A DNA stretch of 47,016 nt from a virus (taxonomy: Duplodnaviria; Heunggongvirae; Uroviricota; Caudoviricetes): IMG/VR virus record IMGVR_UViG_2713897054_000007; one strand, given 5' to 3'. Shown here piece by piece: positions 16,801 to 22,800 of this stretch; the first letter of the stretch is position 1, and each line of letters opens with the position of its first letter. A program made the position numbers.

Positions 16801-19800
16801 GCGGACTACAAAATTGCGCAGGCCGATCTGGATGAGTACCTCTACGCCCGTCACGCGCCGGAACGTAACGCGCATATCGCGAAAATCAACCCGAAAATGC
16901 CGGACGGCGGTTCGGGGATGACCAACGCGGAGGCGGCGGAAATCATGCAGCGTGTACGTAACAGCGGCAAACAGGCACAGTATGACCGTCTGGCAGGGAT
17001 TGTTGACGATATGCTGGCCCGTCGCCGTGAGCTTATCCGTGAGGCAGGACTGGAAGAGAGCGGCGTGGTGGATGCCTGGCAGAAAGCCTACCGTTACTAC
17101 GTTCCCCTGAAAGGGCAGGATGTTGACGGTGTGGTGTCACTGCCACGTACAGGCAAGGGATTCACCATCGGCGGGCGTGAAAGTAAGCAGGCCATGGGGC
17201 GCGCATCCCGCGCACAGTCTCCTTCCACTCAGGCGATACAGGATTTGAGCGAATCACTGATCCGCAATCGCAAAAATGAAGTGGGTAACGCCTTCCTGAA
17301 ACTGGTACAGGATAATCCCGACAAGGATTACTGGCAGGTATTCACCGATGACAGACCGGATACCATGCGGACGATTGCAGAGCGCAAGGACCAGGAAACT
17401 GGTGAAACCATTCGCGAAGTTGTCGAACGCCCTGTACCGATGGCAATGATGGCAGACCGGTACTTCACCACCAAAAAGAACGGCAAAACGTACTACATCA
17501 AACTCCATGATCCGCGCCTGATGCGTGCGATGAAGAATATGGGACCGGAAACCAGTAACGCCGTAATCCGCACGCTGGGGAAAGTTAACCGCTTCCTGGC
17601 AACGGTGAACACGTCGTATAACCCGGAATTCCTGGTCAGTAACTTCATCCGTGACGTACAGACGGCGGTGATGAACCTGAAGGCGGAGCAGGGAAGGAGC
17701 GACGGCAAACTGAAAGGGCTGGATAACTTATCCGCACTGGCTGTGGTGAAAGACAGTCGGTCTGCCATGTCTGCCGTATACGCCAGTCTGCGTGGTAAAA
17801 CCCTCACGGGCAACGGTGCGCAGTGGCAGAAGGTGTGGAAAGAGTTTGTTGAGGACGGAGGTAAAACCGGCTGGTTTAACATGGGTGACCTTGAAGGCCA
17901 GCAGAAGGAAATGGATCGCCTTGTATCGCTGGCGAAGGGAGGATGGAAAGGCCAGAGTATCGGTGCATGGAATTCGTTCCTTAACCTTGTCGAGGATGCC
18001 AACGGGGCGGTTGAAAACGCTCTGCGTCTTTCTGCCTATAAACACGCCCGTGATGCCGGTTTGTCACGCCAGCAGGCGGCGTCTCTTGCCAAAAACATGA
18101 CGGTGAACTTTAACCGTCGTGGTGAGCAGGGAGCGCTGATGAACTCGCTGTACATGTTCGCCAACGCCAGCATTCAGGGGACCGCAAACCTGGTGAGAAC
18201 GCTCGGACATCTTAATGGCGACGGGCCGTTACTGGAGCGCCTTCGCTGGAAGAATCTCAATGTACCGCAGAAAATCGCGCTTGCAGCTGTGGGAGCGGGT
18301 TATCTGCTTGGCTCGCTTAACCGCAGTGTTGCGGGGGAGGATGATGACGGGGTTAACTGGTATGACAAGGTGCCGTCTCATGTGAAAGAGCGTAACCTCG
18401 TCATTATGAAATCGGTGTTCGGGGGCAAGGCCGGAGAGTACTGGAGTATTCCTCTGCCTTACGGGTACAACGTTTTCTTCCTGCTCGGGCATACCGCTGA
18501 AGGTGTGGCGGCGGGTGACCTGACGGCGTCCCGTGCTGCCGGTAATGTTGTTGGTGGTGTGCTTGGTGCATTCAGCCCGATTGGCAGTGAGACGTCGGAA
18601 ACACTGTCCGGGGCATTGCTGAAAAATGCAGCGCCGACCATTCTGCGTCCGTTTGCGAACCTTGCCATGAATGAAAACTTCATGGGGGCGCAGATTTACC
18701 AGGAGAACATGCCGTTTGGTACGCCAAAACCTGACAGCCAGCTGGGAAGACGTTCAACGCCAGAAGCGTACAAGGCGTTTGCATCCTGGCTGAATGCGTT
18801 CTCAGGTGGCAGCCAGTACCGTTCAGGCGCGGTGGATATCACACCGGAATCGCTGAAATACTGGGTGGACTATATCTCTGGTGGTACAGGGCGCTTCATT
18901 TCCAAAACCACGGATGCGGCGGTGAAATCGCTGAACGGTATTGATATACCGGAACAGCAGGTGCCTTTCCTGGGGAAAATTTCAGGTGAGGTGATGCCGT
19001 ATGCTGACCAGCAGAAGATGTACGACCGGATGACAGAGGTTGCGCAGTATCACGCAGAGCTGAAGAGTCTGACCGGCGCAGAAAGAACGGCGTTCATTGA
19101 CGAGAACAACGGAAAATTGTCGATGAACGGGCTTATGCAGGATACCCGGAAGAGACTGAAGGATTTGCGTAAACAGCGTGATGCCATTTACGCCGACAGT
19201 ACTCTCAGTCTGGCGCAACAGTCGGCGATGGTGAAATCGGTAGAGCGGGATATGAAAATTGCCGTGGATCGGTTTAACCGCGAGTACAACAAAAAAGTGG
19301 GAGTGGATTAACAGAAATGGCCCCGTACGGAAGTGCGGGGCTAATGTGATTGGGGAGGGTGAGGATACCTGACACATCAGAGGTGGCGAGGGATTCCTCC
19401 CTTGCAGAGGTCTTTCTTCGTTATCAGTGCCGTCACAATGACGGTAATACAGAGATGAGCAGGGTGATTAACATCGCCTTTTGCTGCTTTCATTGCATTT
19501 CTCCCGCGATAGCTCAGGCGTATTTGTCAATATGCAGAAATATTGATGAACGAATGACGGTAAATACCCTACCCAGAAAATTAACGTAAATTCACATCGT
19601 AAACTTGCGTTAATTATCTGAAATATATACTTAAATCCCCTTAAATCTTTGGGGCGCTATTGGGGCAAAGTGTGGTTGTTTGGGGCATATTTGGGGCAAA
19701 AAAGAACGTATAAAGAACGGTGTAAAATCGATTTCTTTATGGTCAAAATGAGGTCTAACATATTGAAAAGTATATGCTCTTGGACGATCTTCGGTAATTC

Positions 19801-22800
19801 TGTGTTTTTAATGCTTCATGGTTTCAACATGTCTAAGGATATGGTTTATCATTTTGAAAAATATAATTTTATTTCATCCTCCTGGTCACTTTGGGGCACG
19901 TCTGGGGCACGGGCATTAAGGACATTATTCAACATGGCAACTTGAGTCACGCTGCACTCAGGCATCCATGCACCATAAACATTGTAGACCATGCTGGCGC
20001 TGGAGTGCCCCATCTGTGACGCAATAAATGTCGGGTTTGCTCCGGCAGATAAAGCCCAGCACGCATAGGTATGGCGTGACTGATACGCTTTACGGGATCG
20101 GATACCCGCTCTTTTTATTGCTGAATCCCATGTCGCTCCGATGGAGCTTACCGCGTAGTTAATACCCGCCTTGTGATTCTTGCGAACGATTTGCGGACAG
20201 AAAACAAAAGTGCACTCGTGCAAAATTGTTCTTCCGTACTCGCGTAATTTAACAGTGATCTGATGCTGCCTGCCAAGACGAGTAAGCATCGCCTGGTTTT
20301 TAAGTGCTTCAATTGCTGGTGCCAGAAGATGTATAACCCGGTTAGTGCCTGCGTCAGTCTTTGGTAGCGTAAAATCACCTATTTTTGTAAAATTTCTTCG
20401 CACTGTTATCGTGCCAGCTTTCAGGTCGATATCCTCCCATGCAAGTGCGGCAATTTCACCGTGTCGCATCCCTGTAAAAACAGCCACTGTCCAGAGGTTT
20501 TTGGTCTGTTGATGATGGCAGGCATCAATGAGACGGCTAAACTCATCTCTGGTCAGTGGATCCGGCACTGGTTTTGATTTCCTCAGCGGTGTTATTGAAT
20601 TAAACGGGTTTTTCTCCAGATACCCGTTTTCGGCGGCAAAGCTGAACATTCCGGCTGTTGTTGTCATGTAATAGTTCACTGTGGGTACGGTTCTTCCTTT
20701 TCGGGACGTGCTGGTTTTCCTGCTTCCCTTTTCCCCGGTCAGTAAATCTTTCCTGATAAACAGCAGATCTTCTTTTGTAATCGATGACGCCAGCCTGCCA
20801 GGACCAAGCCTCGGTAGCATATTTTTCATCACTGATTGATAACGATTTAAGGCGTTACTACTGATTTCCATTGCTTTCAGAGTAAGCCATTTCTGTGCCA
20901 GTTCACCGACGGTGATATCTTTTTTTACCAGGCCAAATAGCTTCAGGTTAGGTGAGTCAGGGAATCGCTCGGCATAATCAAACGTTCCCGTTCTGATTGC
21001 AAAGCAGACAGAAGCCCTTAACTCACCAGCGATCTTTCTGTTTTTCGGAGTATCGGGCACGCGAAGATTTTCGCGCACTCGTTTACCCCTGTACTTAAAC
21101 GTTATTCGGAGTTTTCCTCCGTGATTTTCAACGCCGGCTGGATAGGCTGAATTCGCCATTGTTCCTCCTGCGTCCAAGAGCACGCTCAGGTTATACTCTT
21201 ATGGACAAGAATTAAACATCCTGAGATGGTAAGGGTTGGTTTTTGATCCAAGTGTTGATGGTAGGAAGATGATAGAGACATTCGCTGTTTTTCTTTGGCG
21301 TTCCGTCGGGGGCAATTTGTTTATATTCTCTGCCGTTCATCCACGCACTGTCCCTGGCGCGTAATATTGTTCCTTTTCTTAGGCCTGTTATAGCCATTAA
21401 AAGCTCCAGTGTTACCCATTCATTCGCATTTATCTGTACAACAGGTGTGATGACTGGCTGAATGCCATGGTTATGTTGGTTTACTAACTCGCGCATAAGT
21501 TGCCTCTGCATGTGTAAGAAAAAACCGCCCGAAGGCGGTTGTCAGTTGATTGATGTACGGCGCATTTTTCGAAGGCTGGCAATATGCTTTTCCTTCTCAA
21601 TTTCCGCTTTAATCATATGCAGTTCGTTGTGCTCGATTCGCTCAAATTCTTCATTAAATGCACCAATTGAAGTGGCTCTGGTTCTGCCGTCGAGCCTTCG
21701 GTAGATCACCTGAGTCAGAGTTACCTTGCATATTTCTACCGGATAGTTGTTGGCATCAACGAAAGACTGCCCGCGCTGGATCAGGACGAACACTGGTTGT
21801 ATTCCTTGAGTGCCATATCATAAACACGGCATGCCGAGAGGTGTGTGTAGTCAACGTCGTTCGTATCCTGAAAAGTCCATGTGTTGTGACGGTAACTTCC
21901 GGGGCTTTGAGTTTCACTGCATCAACGATATGCTGATGTTTGCGGCTTTCGAATATAGAGCTGGATATAACCACACTTGCTGTTAAACCGTAACTTTCAA
22001 ATGTGATTTTCATGTCATTATCCTCGCAGTTAGCCGGGCAACAAAAATAAATAATGTTGTTCCTGCGAATAACAGGATACCGCCCGTCATTAGAGAAAGG
22101 AAAAACAATATTAATGTACGCGGGGTGTTTCTCAAAATATTCTCTCTGTGATTCGCTCACTCTGACAATTCGTTGATCAAGTCACGGTATTTATTCAGTT
22201 CTTGCAACGCCTTACATGCACCCTCCCATCGTTTCTGTTTCCGCCCGGCGCGGCGCGCTTCTTTCCGTGATTTACGTAGCAGGTCGCCTATAATGTTGTG
22301 CTGCACTGGCTGCACTGGCTGCACTGGCTGCACTGGCTGCACTGGCTGCACTGGCTGCACTGGCTGCACTGAGGCGATATTTGGTTTTTTGTCCACTTCC
22401 CTTGCAACTGCCTGCCAGATGCCATTTTTTACAGTTACTACCCCCTGGTTTTTTAACTTCCATAGAGTGTCAATAACGTCATTCAAATCAATATTGAGAC
22501 CTTTAGAAATACTTTCGGCTGATGCTTTTCCTAATTTGTTCAATTCTGTGAGCACTGCGTTCATTTTTTTCTCCTGATATTTTAATGTCGGTGGGGCTGT
22601 TATACGGTTGGTGAGGTGTCAGCTTCTTCTACCAGCTTTTCCAGTTCATCCAGCTTTCGGGAAAGAATTTCACCAAACAGATGAAGTTCTGCATCTGCTG
22701 TAATCGGGATTGGAACAAATCGTATTCCACTTCTGGCAAGTTGATTTGCGATTTCCAGACACTGCCTTAATTCAACTGGTGATGCCTTTGTCAACGTCGT

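What the first reader, a model, noticed from the sequence alone, without database searches (positions are those of the whole stretch)
19640..19912. Six TTGGGGCA repeats flanking an AT-rich segment: candidate attP arm sites, two inside the int coding end
Four direct repeats at 19650-19698 and two at 19892-19910 (within the last ~20 codons of int) are spaced at 11-bp helical-turn multiples around an AT-rich region. This is the expected arrangement for integrase arm-type binding sites around an attP core, and it marks the junction between the late module and the int module.
Basis: seen in the sequence. Interest (0 to 1): 0.4.

Follow-up and report, generated by a model that had tools for sequence, protein, structure and literature searches.

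The report
Integrase arm sites flanking phage attP
The six TGGGGCA repeats are almost certainly the accessory ("arm") binding sites of this Shiga-toxin phage's integrase, placed either side of the 7-bp crossover point where the phage inserts into the E. coli wrbA gene. This is an ordinary lambda-style attachment site, but the same sites recur throughout a large, little-studied integrase family.

Summary
There are four exact TTGGGGCA copies and two one-mismatch copies, all on the + strand: two pairs at 19649-19698 and one pair at 19891-19909, the latter in codons 14-20 from the end of int. They flank a stretch of 31% G+C.

Prophage junctions in 217 E. coli genomes, plus an empty wrbA site, put the 7-bp crossover GTTTCAA at 19821-19827, between the clusters. 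The repeats lie at -175..-126 and +67..+85 from its centre. Lambda's P'2 and P'3 sites lie at +65..+84.

Int carries an N-terminal Pfam "Arm DNA-binding" domain (PF12167).

Family-wide evidence:
- Six phages with Int only 58-70% identical and unrelated cores keep a TGCCCCA pair 11 bp apart in the int 3' end and another pair 196-200 bp downstream.
- 76 of 80 species-level homologues keep the int-embedded pair; background is 0 pairs in 633 kb.
- Rac of K-12 has the same pair just outside intR.
- The Ala/Pro/Pro codons under the sites are fixed (GCC 66/66, CCA 71/76, CCC 75/75), against 0.29-0.74 at 66 control columns. The constraint is therefore on DNA, not on the peptide.

Int binding is inferred, not shown. 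The "11-bp multiples" claim is true only within pairs. This is a new member of a known kind, of modest interest.

The parts
19649..19656 (+). P-arm arm-type site, outermost copy: TTGGGGCg. Close relatives have A at position 8.
19660..19667 (+). P-arm arm-type site TTGGGGCA, 11 bp from the previous copy.
19680..19687 (+). P-arm arm-type site TTGGGGCA (second pair). This pair aligns with the single distal pair of the six divergent phages.
19691..19698 (+). P-arm arm-type site TTGGGGCA, the core-proximal copy of the P arm, -133..-126 from the overlap centre.
19756..19768 (-). IHF-consensus-like sequence TTTCAATATGTTA, one mismatch to WATCAANNNNTTR. Candidate P-arm bending site, low confidence.
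19776..19799 (.). Block conserved in 6 of 7 divergent attP regions (int-sense consensus AAAATCGACAAAGATCGTCCAGGAGC). Candidate excisionase and/or bending-protein site. The assignment is inferred only.
   Evidence: XisR of Rac binds an attR fragment (PMC4632033).
19817..19833 (.). Core region shared with wrbA. attP is CATgGTTTCAAcATGTC and attB is CATcGTTTCAAtATGTC.
19821..19827 (.). 7-bp overlap (crossover) region GTTTCAA. It is bounded on both sides by attP/attB mismatches that segregate as expected into attL and attR.
   Evidence: annotated as such in NC_004913 and LC645427
19845..19857 (-). Weak H'-like IHF candidate TTTCAAAATGATA (2 mismatches) overlapping the int stop codon. The aligned position in relatives is a full IHF consensus (AATCAGTAAGTTA, TATCAAATAGTTG).
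   Evidence: and reading of the sequence. Inferred.
19891..19898 (+). P'-arm arm-type site TTGGGGCA inside int (codons V-P-Q), +67..+74 from the overlap centre.
19902..19909 (+). P'-arm arm-type site cTGGGGCA inside int (codons R-A-P), +78..+85 from the overlap centre.
19849..21159 (-). int: tyrosine integrase with an N-terminal Arm-DNA-bind_2 domain (PF12167, residues 15-78 of the 444-aa ORF) and a Phage_integrase catalytic domain. The ORF can also be read from a GTG at 21183.
21212..21511 (-). xis: DUF1233 putative excisionase, a homologue of Rac XisR/YdaQ.

Best explanation
The region 19649-19909 is the attP of a wrbA-integrating Stx-type (933W-like) phage, built like lambda attP.

The integrase is heterobivalent. 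Its N-terminal arm-binding domain is proposed to bind the TGGGGCA repeats: two pairs on the P arm and one pair on the P' arm, the latter written into the last 20 codons of int. Its core-binding and catalytic domains act at the core, around the 7-bp overlap GTTTCAA (19821-19827).

Bending of the AT-rich DNA between the arms and the core, probably by IHF, would let arm-bound Int reach the core and assemble the intasome. The intasome then recombines attP with the wrbA attB. After integration the P' pair stays next to int in attL, and the P-arm pairs sit at the far prophage end in attR. There the DUF1233 excisionase would act during excision.

Shown here: the repeats, the position of the crossover, the Int domain content, family-wide conservation of the site layout, and nucleotide-level selection on the int-embedded copies.

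Inferred: that Int, through its N-domain, is the protein that reads the repeats, and the roles of IHF and Xis.
For: 1. Junction mapping. A megablast of 19560-20060 against 5426 complete E. coli genomes hit 217 genomes. The hits are mostly two half-matches that break at 19817-19833. Comparing attL, attR and an empty wrbA gives a 7-bp overlap flanked by diagnostic mismatches.

2. Int matches Pfam Arm-DNA-bind_2 (E = 8e-26) and Phage_integrase. An AlphaFold model of residues 1-100 (pLDDT 86) has three beta-strands followed by a helix. That is the topology described for this subgroup's arm-binding domain (PMC8138268).

3. Geometry. The P' copies lie at +67..+85. Lambda P'2 and P'3 lie at +65..+84 and are 11 bp apart, and lambda P'3 overlaps the int stop codon.

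4. Six phages with an intact attP and Int 58-70% identical have unrelated cores. Each still has a TGCCCCA pair 11 bp apart in the int 3' end and another pair 196-200 bp further on. These 7-mers are essentially the only invariant columns in the alignment.

5. 62 of 80 species-level homologues (45-71% identity) have the exact pair at the int 3' end, and 76 of 80 have it within one mismatch. No such pair occurs in 633,200 background strand-bases.

6. Codon test on 78 unique Ints: A418 is GCC in 66/66, P419 is CCA in 71/76, P422 is CCC in 75/75. At 66 control conserved four-fold-degenerate columns the top-codon fraction is 0.29-0.74.

7. In Rac of K-12 (IntR 44% identical, lacking the C-terminal tail) TTTGCCCC occurs twice, 11 bp apart, just after the stop codon in attL, and three times in attR. 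The sites therefore exist independently of coding.

8. The arm-binding domain is the most conserved part of Int (73% mean identity). The core-binding region is at 51% and the tail peptide at 37%. This fits a constant arm motif with variable cores.
Against: - No binding data exist for this Int or any close relative in the searchable literature.
- The homologous excisionase co-occurs with Int in 78 of 82 loci, so phyletic pattern cannot separate Int from Xis as the reader of the motif. XisR of Rac does shift an attR fragment that may contain the repeats.
- Foldseek found no significant PDB match for the N-domain model (best E = 0.08; only weak AP2-domain hits).
- IHF-consensus matches in this particular attP are weak (1-2 mismatches).
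- All six copies point the same way, whereas lambda P2 is inverted, so the detailed wiring may differ from lambda.
Confidence: 0.85

Rival explanations
1. The repeats are binding sites for the DUF1233 excisionase (recombination directionality factor), or are shared between Xis and Int, rather than Int arm sites.
For: Xis homologues accompany Int in 78 of 82 loci. Rac XisR binds a 294-bp attR fragment in EMSA (PMC4632033), and Rac attR carries three TTTGCCCC copies.
Against: - The motif sits on both arms, at lambda-like Int positions, including attL next to int. Lambda-type Xis acts on the P arm only (established knowledge).
- The Xis proteins are only 28-58% identical across loci that share an invariant motif. 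The Int arm-binding domain is the best-conserved segment.
- Four loci with no detectable Xis homologue still keep the pair.
- A separate conserved block between the core and the P-arm sites is a better Xis candidate.
Confidence: 0.08
2. The int-internal copies are a by-product of a conserved C-terminal peptide (A-P-x-x-P-Q/H), and the upstream copies are unrelated or arose by chance. On this reading there is no DNA-level function.
For: The A-P..P-[QH] peptide is conserved in most homologues.
Against: - Synonymous positions are frozen (GCC 66/66, CCA 71/76, CCC 75/75) against 0.29-0.74 at controls.
- The two copies are read in different frames.
- Rac has the same pair outside the ORF.
- The distal pair recurs at a fixed distance in non-coding DNA of six divergent phages.
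- Chance clustering is excluded.
- An internal control behaves as expected: the inverted ATGGGGCA at 20006-20013 (Q-M-G-H codons) shows no codon constraint (G384, top codon 0.36).
Confidence: 0.01
3. The repeats serve another DNA-level role unrelated to recombination. Examples are operator sites for a regulator of int or of the adjacent hok-like locus, or iterons.
For: The repeats are direct, phased 11 bp apart, and lie beside a strongly structured hairpin and a hok/gef remnant.
Against: - The layout tracks int and the att core in every relative, whatever the neighbouring genes are: dinI, invertase, msgA or ttcA.
- The constant 196-200 bp separation straddling the crossover point is what an intasome needs. 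An operator does not need it.
Confidence: 0.04

Closest known systems
Bacteriophage lambda attP (P1, P2, P'1-P'3 arm-type sites; IHF H1/H2/H'; Xis X1/X2; 7-bp overlap)
   Same: - Heterobivalent tyrosine integrase with an N-terminal arm-binding domain.
- 7-bp overlap.
- int transcribed toward attP, with the P' arm adjacent to the int 3' end.
- P' sites 10-11 bp apart at +55..+84 in lambda and +67..+85 here. Lambda P'3 overlaps the int stop codon.
- AT-rich DNA between arm and core. xis lies upstream of int.
   Different: - The arm motif is TGGGGCA rather than lambda's CAGTCACTAT.
- The arm-binding domain belongs to a different Pfam family (PF12167, not lambda's).
- Both P' sites lie fully inside the int ORF.
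- There are 4 P-arm copies (6 in 933W-like phages), all in one orientation. Lambda has 2, and P2 is inverted.
- The P-arm sites are further out (-175..-126 against -141..-103).
- The attB is inside wrbA.
Rac cryptic prophage of E. coli K-12 (IntR/XisR, integrated in ttcA)
   Same: - Same integrase family (44% identity) and a homologous excisionase.
- Same TTTGCCCC(A) motif in pairs 11 bp apart in attL, and three copies in attR.
- XisR binds attR (PMC4632033).
   Different: - IntR lacks the C-terminal tail, so the P' pair lies just downstream of the stop codon rather than inside the ORF.
- The core identity is 26 bp, in ttcA.
- The arm-to-arm distance is about 187 bp.
IntBPP-1 subgroup of tyrosine recombinases (Smyshlyaev et al. 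2021, PMC8138268): Bordetella BPP-1, Stx2a phage and Gifsy-2 integrases
   Same: The window's Int has that subgroup's arm-binding domain (DUF3596/PF12167) and the three-strand/one-helix topology.
   Different: That paper classifies the proteins and calls them putative integrases. It does not report their arm sites. The site consensus and layout come from this analysis.
Public annotation of 933W-like phages (Sato et al. records NC_004913, AP004402; LC645427)
   Same: The 7-bp attachment site / insertion duplication is annotated at the position found here. A 'repeat_region, arrangement g / gg; region III' covers the distal repeats.
   Different: The records give the repeat no function and do not mention the two copies inside int.

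Membership tests
Lambda-type attP of a heterobivalent tyrosine integrase | The crossover (overlap) region is shared by attP and attB and maps between the repeat clusters. | tested here: met
   Comparing attP, attB, attL and attR gives the 7-bp overlap GTTTCAA at 19821-19827, with flanking mismatches segregating as expected.
Lambda-type attP of a heterobivalent tyrosine integrase | The integrase has a separate N-terminal arm-binding domain in addition to the core-binding and catalytic domains. | tested here: met
   Pfam PF12167 Arm-DNA-bind_2 (E = 8e-26) plus PF00589 (E = 4e-17). The model has three beta-strands and a helix. Foldseek against the PDB gave no significant match, so the fold-level link to lambda Int N-domain is inconclusive.
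Lambda-type attP of a heterobivalent tyrosine integrase | Repeated arm-type motifs lie on both arms, are distinct from the core sequence, and are conserved with the integrase family. | tested here: met
   There are six copies in the window. The same pairs occur in 6 of 6 divergent phages, in Rac, and in 76 of 80 species loci.
Lambda-type attP of a heterobivalent tyrosine integrase | The Int N-domain physically binds the arm-type repeats. | not testable with these tools
   This needs EMSA or footprinting. No such data were found in the literature searches.
Lambda-type attP of a heterobivalent tyrosine integrase | Sites for a DNA-bending protein (IHF) lie between the arm sites and the core. | tested here: inconclusive
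   The window has only 1- and 2-mismatch consensus matches (19756-19768 and 19845-19857). Relatives have full consensus matches at the aligned H'-like position.
Lambda-type attP of a heterobivalent tyrosine integrase | An excisionase is encoded next to int and acts on the P arm (attR). | tested here: inconclusive
   A DUF1233 xis lies upstream of int. The homologue XisR binds Rac attR. The Xis sites in this attP are not identified; the candidate is the conserved block at 19776-19799.
IntBPP-1 / DUF3596 integrase subgroup | An arm-binding domain matching PF12167 together with a tyrosine recombinase catalytic domain. | tested here: met
   all 120 listed homologues carry PF12167 and PF00589.

The most novel reading that the evidence does not exclude
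The arm-site motif TG(C/T)CCCA and its layout are essentially invariant across an entire integrase family, from Rac of K-12 to 933W-like Stx phages, Fels-1-like phages and Klebsiella and Enterobacter phages. Only the core sites and the core-binding region vary. Co-resident prophages of this family (several are present in O157 strains) could therefore share one 'arm code'. Their Int and Xis proteins might then load on each other's arms and cross-activate, cross-inhibit or rescue excision of defective neighbours.

A corollary concerns the C-terminal tail of Int. It may be a coding extension laid over pre-existing P' sites (Rac shows the untranslated state). Int bound there could obstruct completion of its own transcript.
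Probability: 0.2. Interest if true: 0.55.

Novelty: new member of a known kind. Interest (0 to 1): 0.33.

Why it matters
It gives a concrete, testable map of the attachment site of the wrbA-integrating Shiga-toxin phages: the crossover point, six arm sites, and candidate bending and excisionase sites. It also gives a simple sequence signature for a widespread enterobacterial integrase family (DUF3596/IntBPP-1) whose arm sites appear not to have been described. The signature is a TGCCCCA pair 11 bp apart at the int 3' end and a second pair about 200 bp on.

The signature can help delimit prophage ends and identify intact attP sites. The frozen synonymous codons are a clean example of a protein-binding DNA site constraining a coding sequence. 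Mechanistically it is what the lambda paradigm predicts, so it refines knowledge rather than overturning it.

Tried and rejected
- **Rfam on 19100-20100.** Only two sub-threshold chance hits. No known RNA explains the region.
- **Promoter/terminator scan.** Nothing above the shuffle expectation.
- **Foldseek of the N-domain model against the PDB.** No significant hit (best E = 0.08). The weak AP2-domain hits are suggestive only, so I do not claim fold membership with lambda Int N-domain.
- **PDB sequence search.** Only the catalytic-domain region matches other recombinases. There is no solved close relative.
- **Papers not held.** Plunkett 1999 (933W genome) and Sato 2003 could not be read, so I cannot say whether they comment on the repeats.
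- **Literature searches.** Searches for arm-type sites of 933W, wrbA, Rac, Gifsy or BPP-1 integrases, and for the motif itself, found nothing relevant.
- **Mosaic boundary idea, rejected.** I first thought homology with 933W-like phages began exactly at the first repeat (hit H10). The alignment shows that break is caused by an extra 31-bp repeat unit, not by a mosaic boundary.
- **Phyletic separation of Int from Xis.** This failed because the two nearly always co-occur.
- **Seventh, inverted copy at 20006-20013, rejected.** It is the Q-M-G-H codons and has an unconstrained Gly codon.
- **Conservation among close wrbA-type relatives.** They are too similar overall to be informative, which is why divergent relatives were used.
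Full report
**What the window is.** The region is 100% identical to Escherichia phage vB_EcoP_phi315. It is 98-99% identical to the int region of 933W, VT2-Sakai and Stx1/Stx2-converting phages. The - strand ORF 19849-21159 (extendable to a GTG at 21183) is a tyrosine integrase with Pfam Arm-DNA-bind_2 (PF12167, E = 8e-26) and Phage_integrase (E = 4e-17). The ORF upstream of it, 21212-21511, is a DUF1233 putative excisionase.

**The observation.** On the + strand the copies are:
- TTGGGGCg at 19649-19656
- TTGGGGCA at 19660-19667, 19680-19687, 19691-19698 and 19891-19898
- cTGGGGCA at 19902-19909

That is four exact copies and two with one mismatch, all in one orientation. 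Start-to-start spacings are 11, 20, 11, 200 and 11 bp. The unit is really a pair of sites 11 bp apart, which repeat finder reports as three copies of a 22-nt unit.

Five exact TGGGGCA 7-mers fall within 270 bp. The maximum in 300 simulations was 2. The DNA between the clusters is 31% G+C against 50% for the window. The last two copies lie in codons 14-20 from the end of int and encode R-A-P-D-V-P-Q.

**Where recombination happens.** A megablast of 19560-20060 against 5426 complete E. coli genomes hit 217 genomes, with a median of two places each. One place covers 19560-19833 and the other covers 19817-20060; the latter lies next to wrbA. Reading the junctions gives:

| Site | Sequence |
|---|---|
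| attB (empty wrbA, strain RM9872) | GCCATcGTTTCAAtATGTCCGT |
| attP | TTCATgGTTTCAAcATGTCTAAGG |
| attL | CATcGTTTCAAcATGTCTAAGG |
| attR | CATgGTTTCAAtATGTCCGT |

. The exchange therefore occurs within the 7 bp GTTTCAA at 19821-19827. This is the position annotated as "attachment site" in NC_004913 and as "duplication due to insertion" in LC645427. Measured from its centre (19824), the repeats lie at -175..-126 and +67..+85.

For comparison I located lambda's arm sites in its own sequence:
- P1 at -141..-133
- P2 at -111..-103, inverted
- P'1 at +55..+63
- P'2 at +65..+73
- P'3 at +76..+84, overlapping the int stop codon

The int-side pair here sits where lambda P'2 and P'3 sit.

**Comparative evidence.** tblastn of Int against the phage collection found phages with an interior int, and hence an intact attP, whose Int is only 58-70% identical. 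They are CharmingMan, KPP5665-2, Mulock, CobraSix, FSL SP-016 and Tritos.

- In int-sense orientation every one has a TGCCCCA pair 11 bp apart in the last 8-21 codons of int.
- Every one has a second pair, TG(C/T)CCCA then TGCCCCA, whose inner copy starts 196-200 bp after the inner copy of the first pair.
- CharmingMan, like the window, has a further distal pair.
- In the 7-way alignment these 7-mers are almost the only invariant columns. The cores differ.
- 933W-like phages carry an extra 31-bp unit, giving a third distal pair. GenBank annotates this only as "arrangement gg".

A scan of one genome per species returned 80 loci with Int 45-71% identical. Of these, 62 have the exact pair at the int 3' end and 76 have it within one mismatch, commonly TGTCCCA. 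No such pair occurs in 633,200 strand-bases of background from the same loci.

Rac of E. coli K-12 has an IntR 44% identical that lacks the C-terminal tail. It has TTTGCCCC twice, 11 bp apart, immediately after the intR stop codon in attL, and three times in attR. These lie 56-67 bp and 131-161 bp from the 26-bp core.

**DNA-level versus protein-level constraint.** I built a codon alignment of 78 unique Ints. The 66 control columns with a conserved four-fold-degenerate residue have top-codon fractions of 0.29-0.74. The three columns under the sites are GCC 66/66, CCA 71/76 and CCC 75/75.

The two copies are read in different frames. The surrounding tail peptide is the least conserved part of the protein (37% mean identity). 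The arm-binding domain is the most conserved (73%), and the core-binding region is at 51%.

The inverted ATGGGGCA at 20006-20013 (Q-M-G-H) shows no codon constraint and serves as a negative control. The int-embedded copies are therefore maintained as DNA sites.

**Mechanism proposed.** This is a lambda-type intasome.
- The Int N-domains bind the TGGGGCA sites.
- The Int core-binding and catalytic domains act at the core.
- The intervening AT-rich DNA is bent.

Candidate bending sites in the window are weak: TTTCAATATGTTA at 19756-19768 (1 mismatch) and TTTCAAAATGATA at 19845-19857 (2 mismatches). Relatives have perfect IHF consensus sequences at the aligned H'-like position.

A block conserved in 6 of 7 phages (window 19776-19799) lies between the core and the P-arm sites, where lambda has its Xis and H2 sites. 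Rac XisR binds an attR fragment (PMC4632033). These assignments are inferred.

**What is not shown.** No experiment links Int to the repeats. Three points argue for Int: the motif is on both arms, Xis is far more divergent (28-58% identity), and four loci without a detectable Xis keep the pair. Foldseek gave no significant structural match for the N-domain model.

**Known or new.** The core position and the existence of a "repeat region" are already in public annotation. The integrase belongs to the IntBPP-1/DUF3596 subgroup, whose members are described as putative integrases (PMC8138268). I found no description of their arm sites in the searchable literature. Two key subscription papers could not be read.

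**Verdict.** The feature is a new, well-delimited member of a known kind, and of modest interest. The family-wide motif, the fixed geometry and the frozen codons are the additions made here.

Noticed in passing
window 19574-19620: A strong hairpin with 22-nt arms and a 3-nt loop lies about 30 bp outside the outermost arm site. RNA folding gives -18.6 kcal/mol on the int-sense strand (z = -4.4) and -27.9 kcal/mol in the Stx1-converting phage variant, which carries compensatory A:U>G:C changes. It is downstream of int only in the attP (excised) configuration, a position like lambda sib/tI. Alternatively it belongs to the adjacent hok/gef remnant. Rfam finds nothing.
   Followed up: partly
window ~19401-19474 (- strand): RefSeq annotates a frameshifted, partial Hok/Gef family pseudogene at the equivalent position in prophage copies, between the 2806-aa gene and attP.
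   Followed up: no
window 19776-19799: A sequence block (int-sense AAAATCGACAAAGATCGTCCAGGAGC) is conserved between the core and the P-arm sites in 6 of 7 otherwise divergent attP regions. It is a candidate excisionase or bending-protein site.
   Followed up: partly
int codons 7-9 (window ~21133-21141, - strand): Conserved residues P7, T8 and G9 show unusually high codon bias across 78 homologues (CCA 0.74, ACA 0.63, GGC 0.73). This hints at a nucleotide-level constraint near the int 5' end.
   Followed up: no
window 19649-19945 (+ strand): A 98-aa ORF spanning the whole attP is annotated as a hypothetical protein (ORF B44 / ORF-43) in some phage records. It has no Pfam match and is split by integration, so it is probably not a gene.
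   Followed up: partly
L012 (AP004402, 933W-like) 568-637, aligned to window 19645-19683: The number of distal repeat pairs varies between close relatives. 933W-like phages have an extra 31-bp unit, giving 6 P-arm copies. In the window the first copy ends in G, where relatives have A.
   Followed up: yes
L011 (NZ_CP044141.1, 'plasmid' pAR-0430-4, 50 kb linear): An intact attP (96% identical over 19560-20060) sits on a 50-kb record labelled as a plasmid of an O157 strain. It is probably an excised or unintegrated phage genome in the assembly.
   Followed up: no
window 22157-22564 (- strand): This ORF contains seven tandem P-V-Q repeats (a 9-bp unit). The other frames give long CS/AAS runs.
   Followed up: no
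window 10891-19311 (+ strand): A 2806-aa ORF ends about 340 bp before the arm sites. RefSeq calls the equivalent an LPD38 domain-containing protein. The sequence contains an HEWFH metalloprotease-like motif.
   Followed up: no
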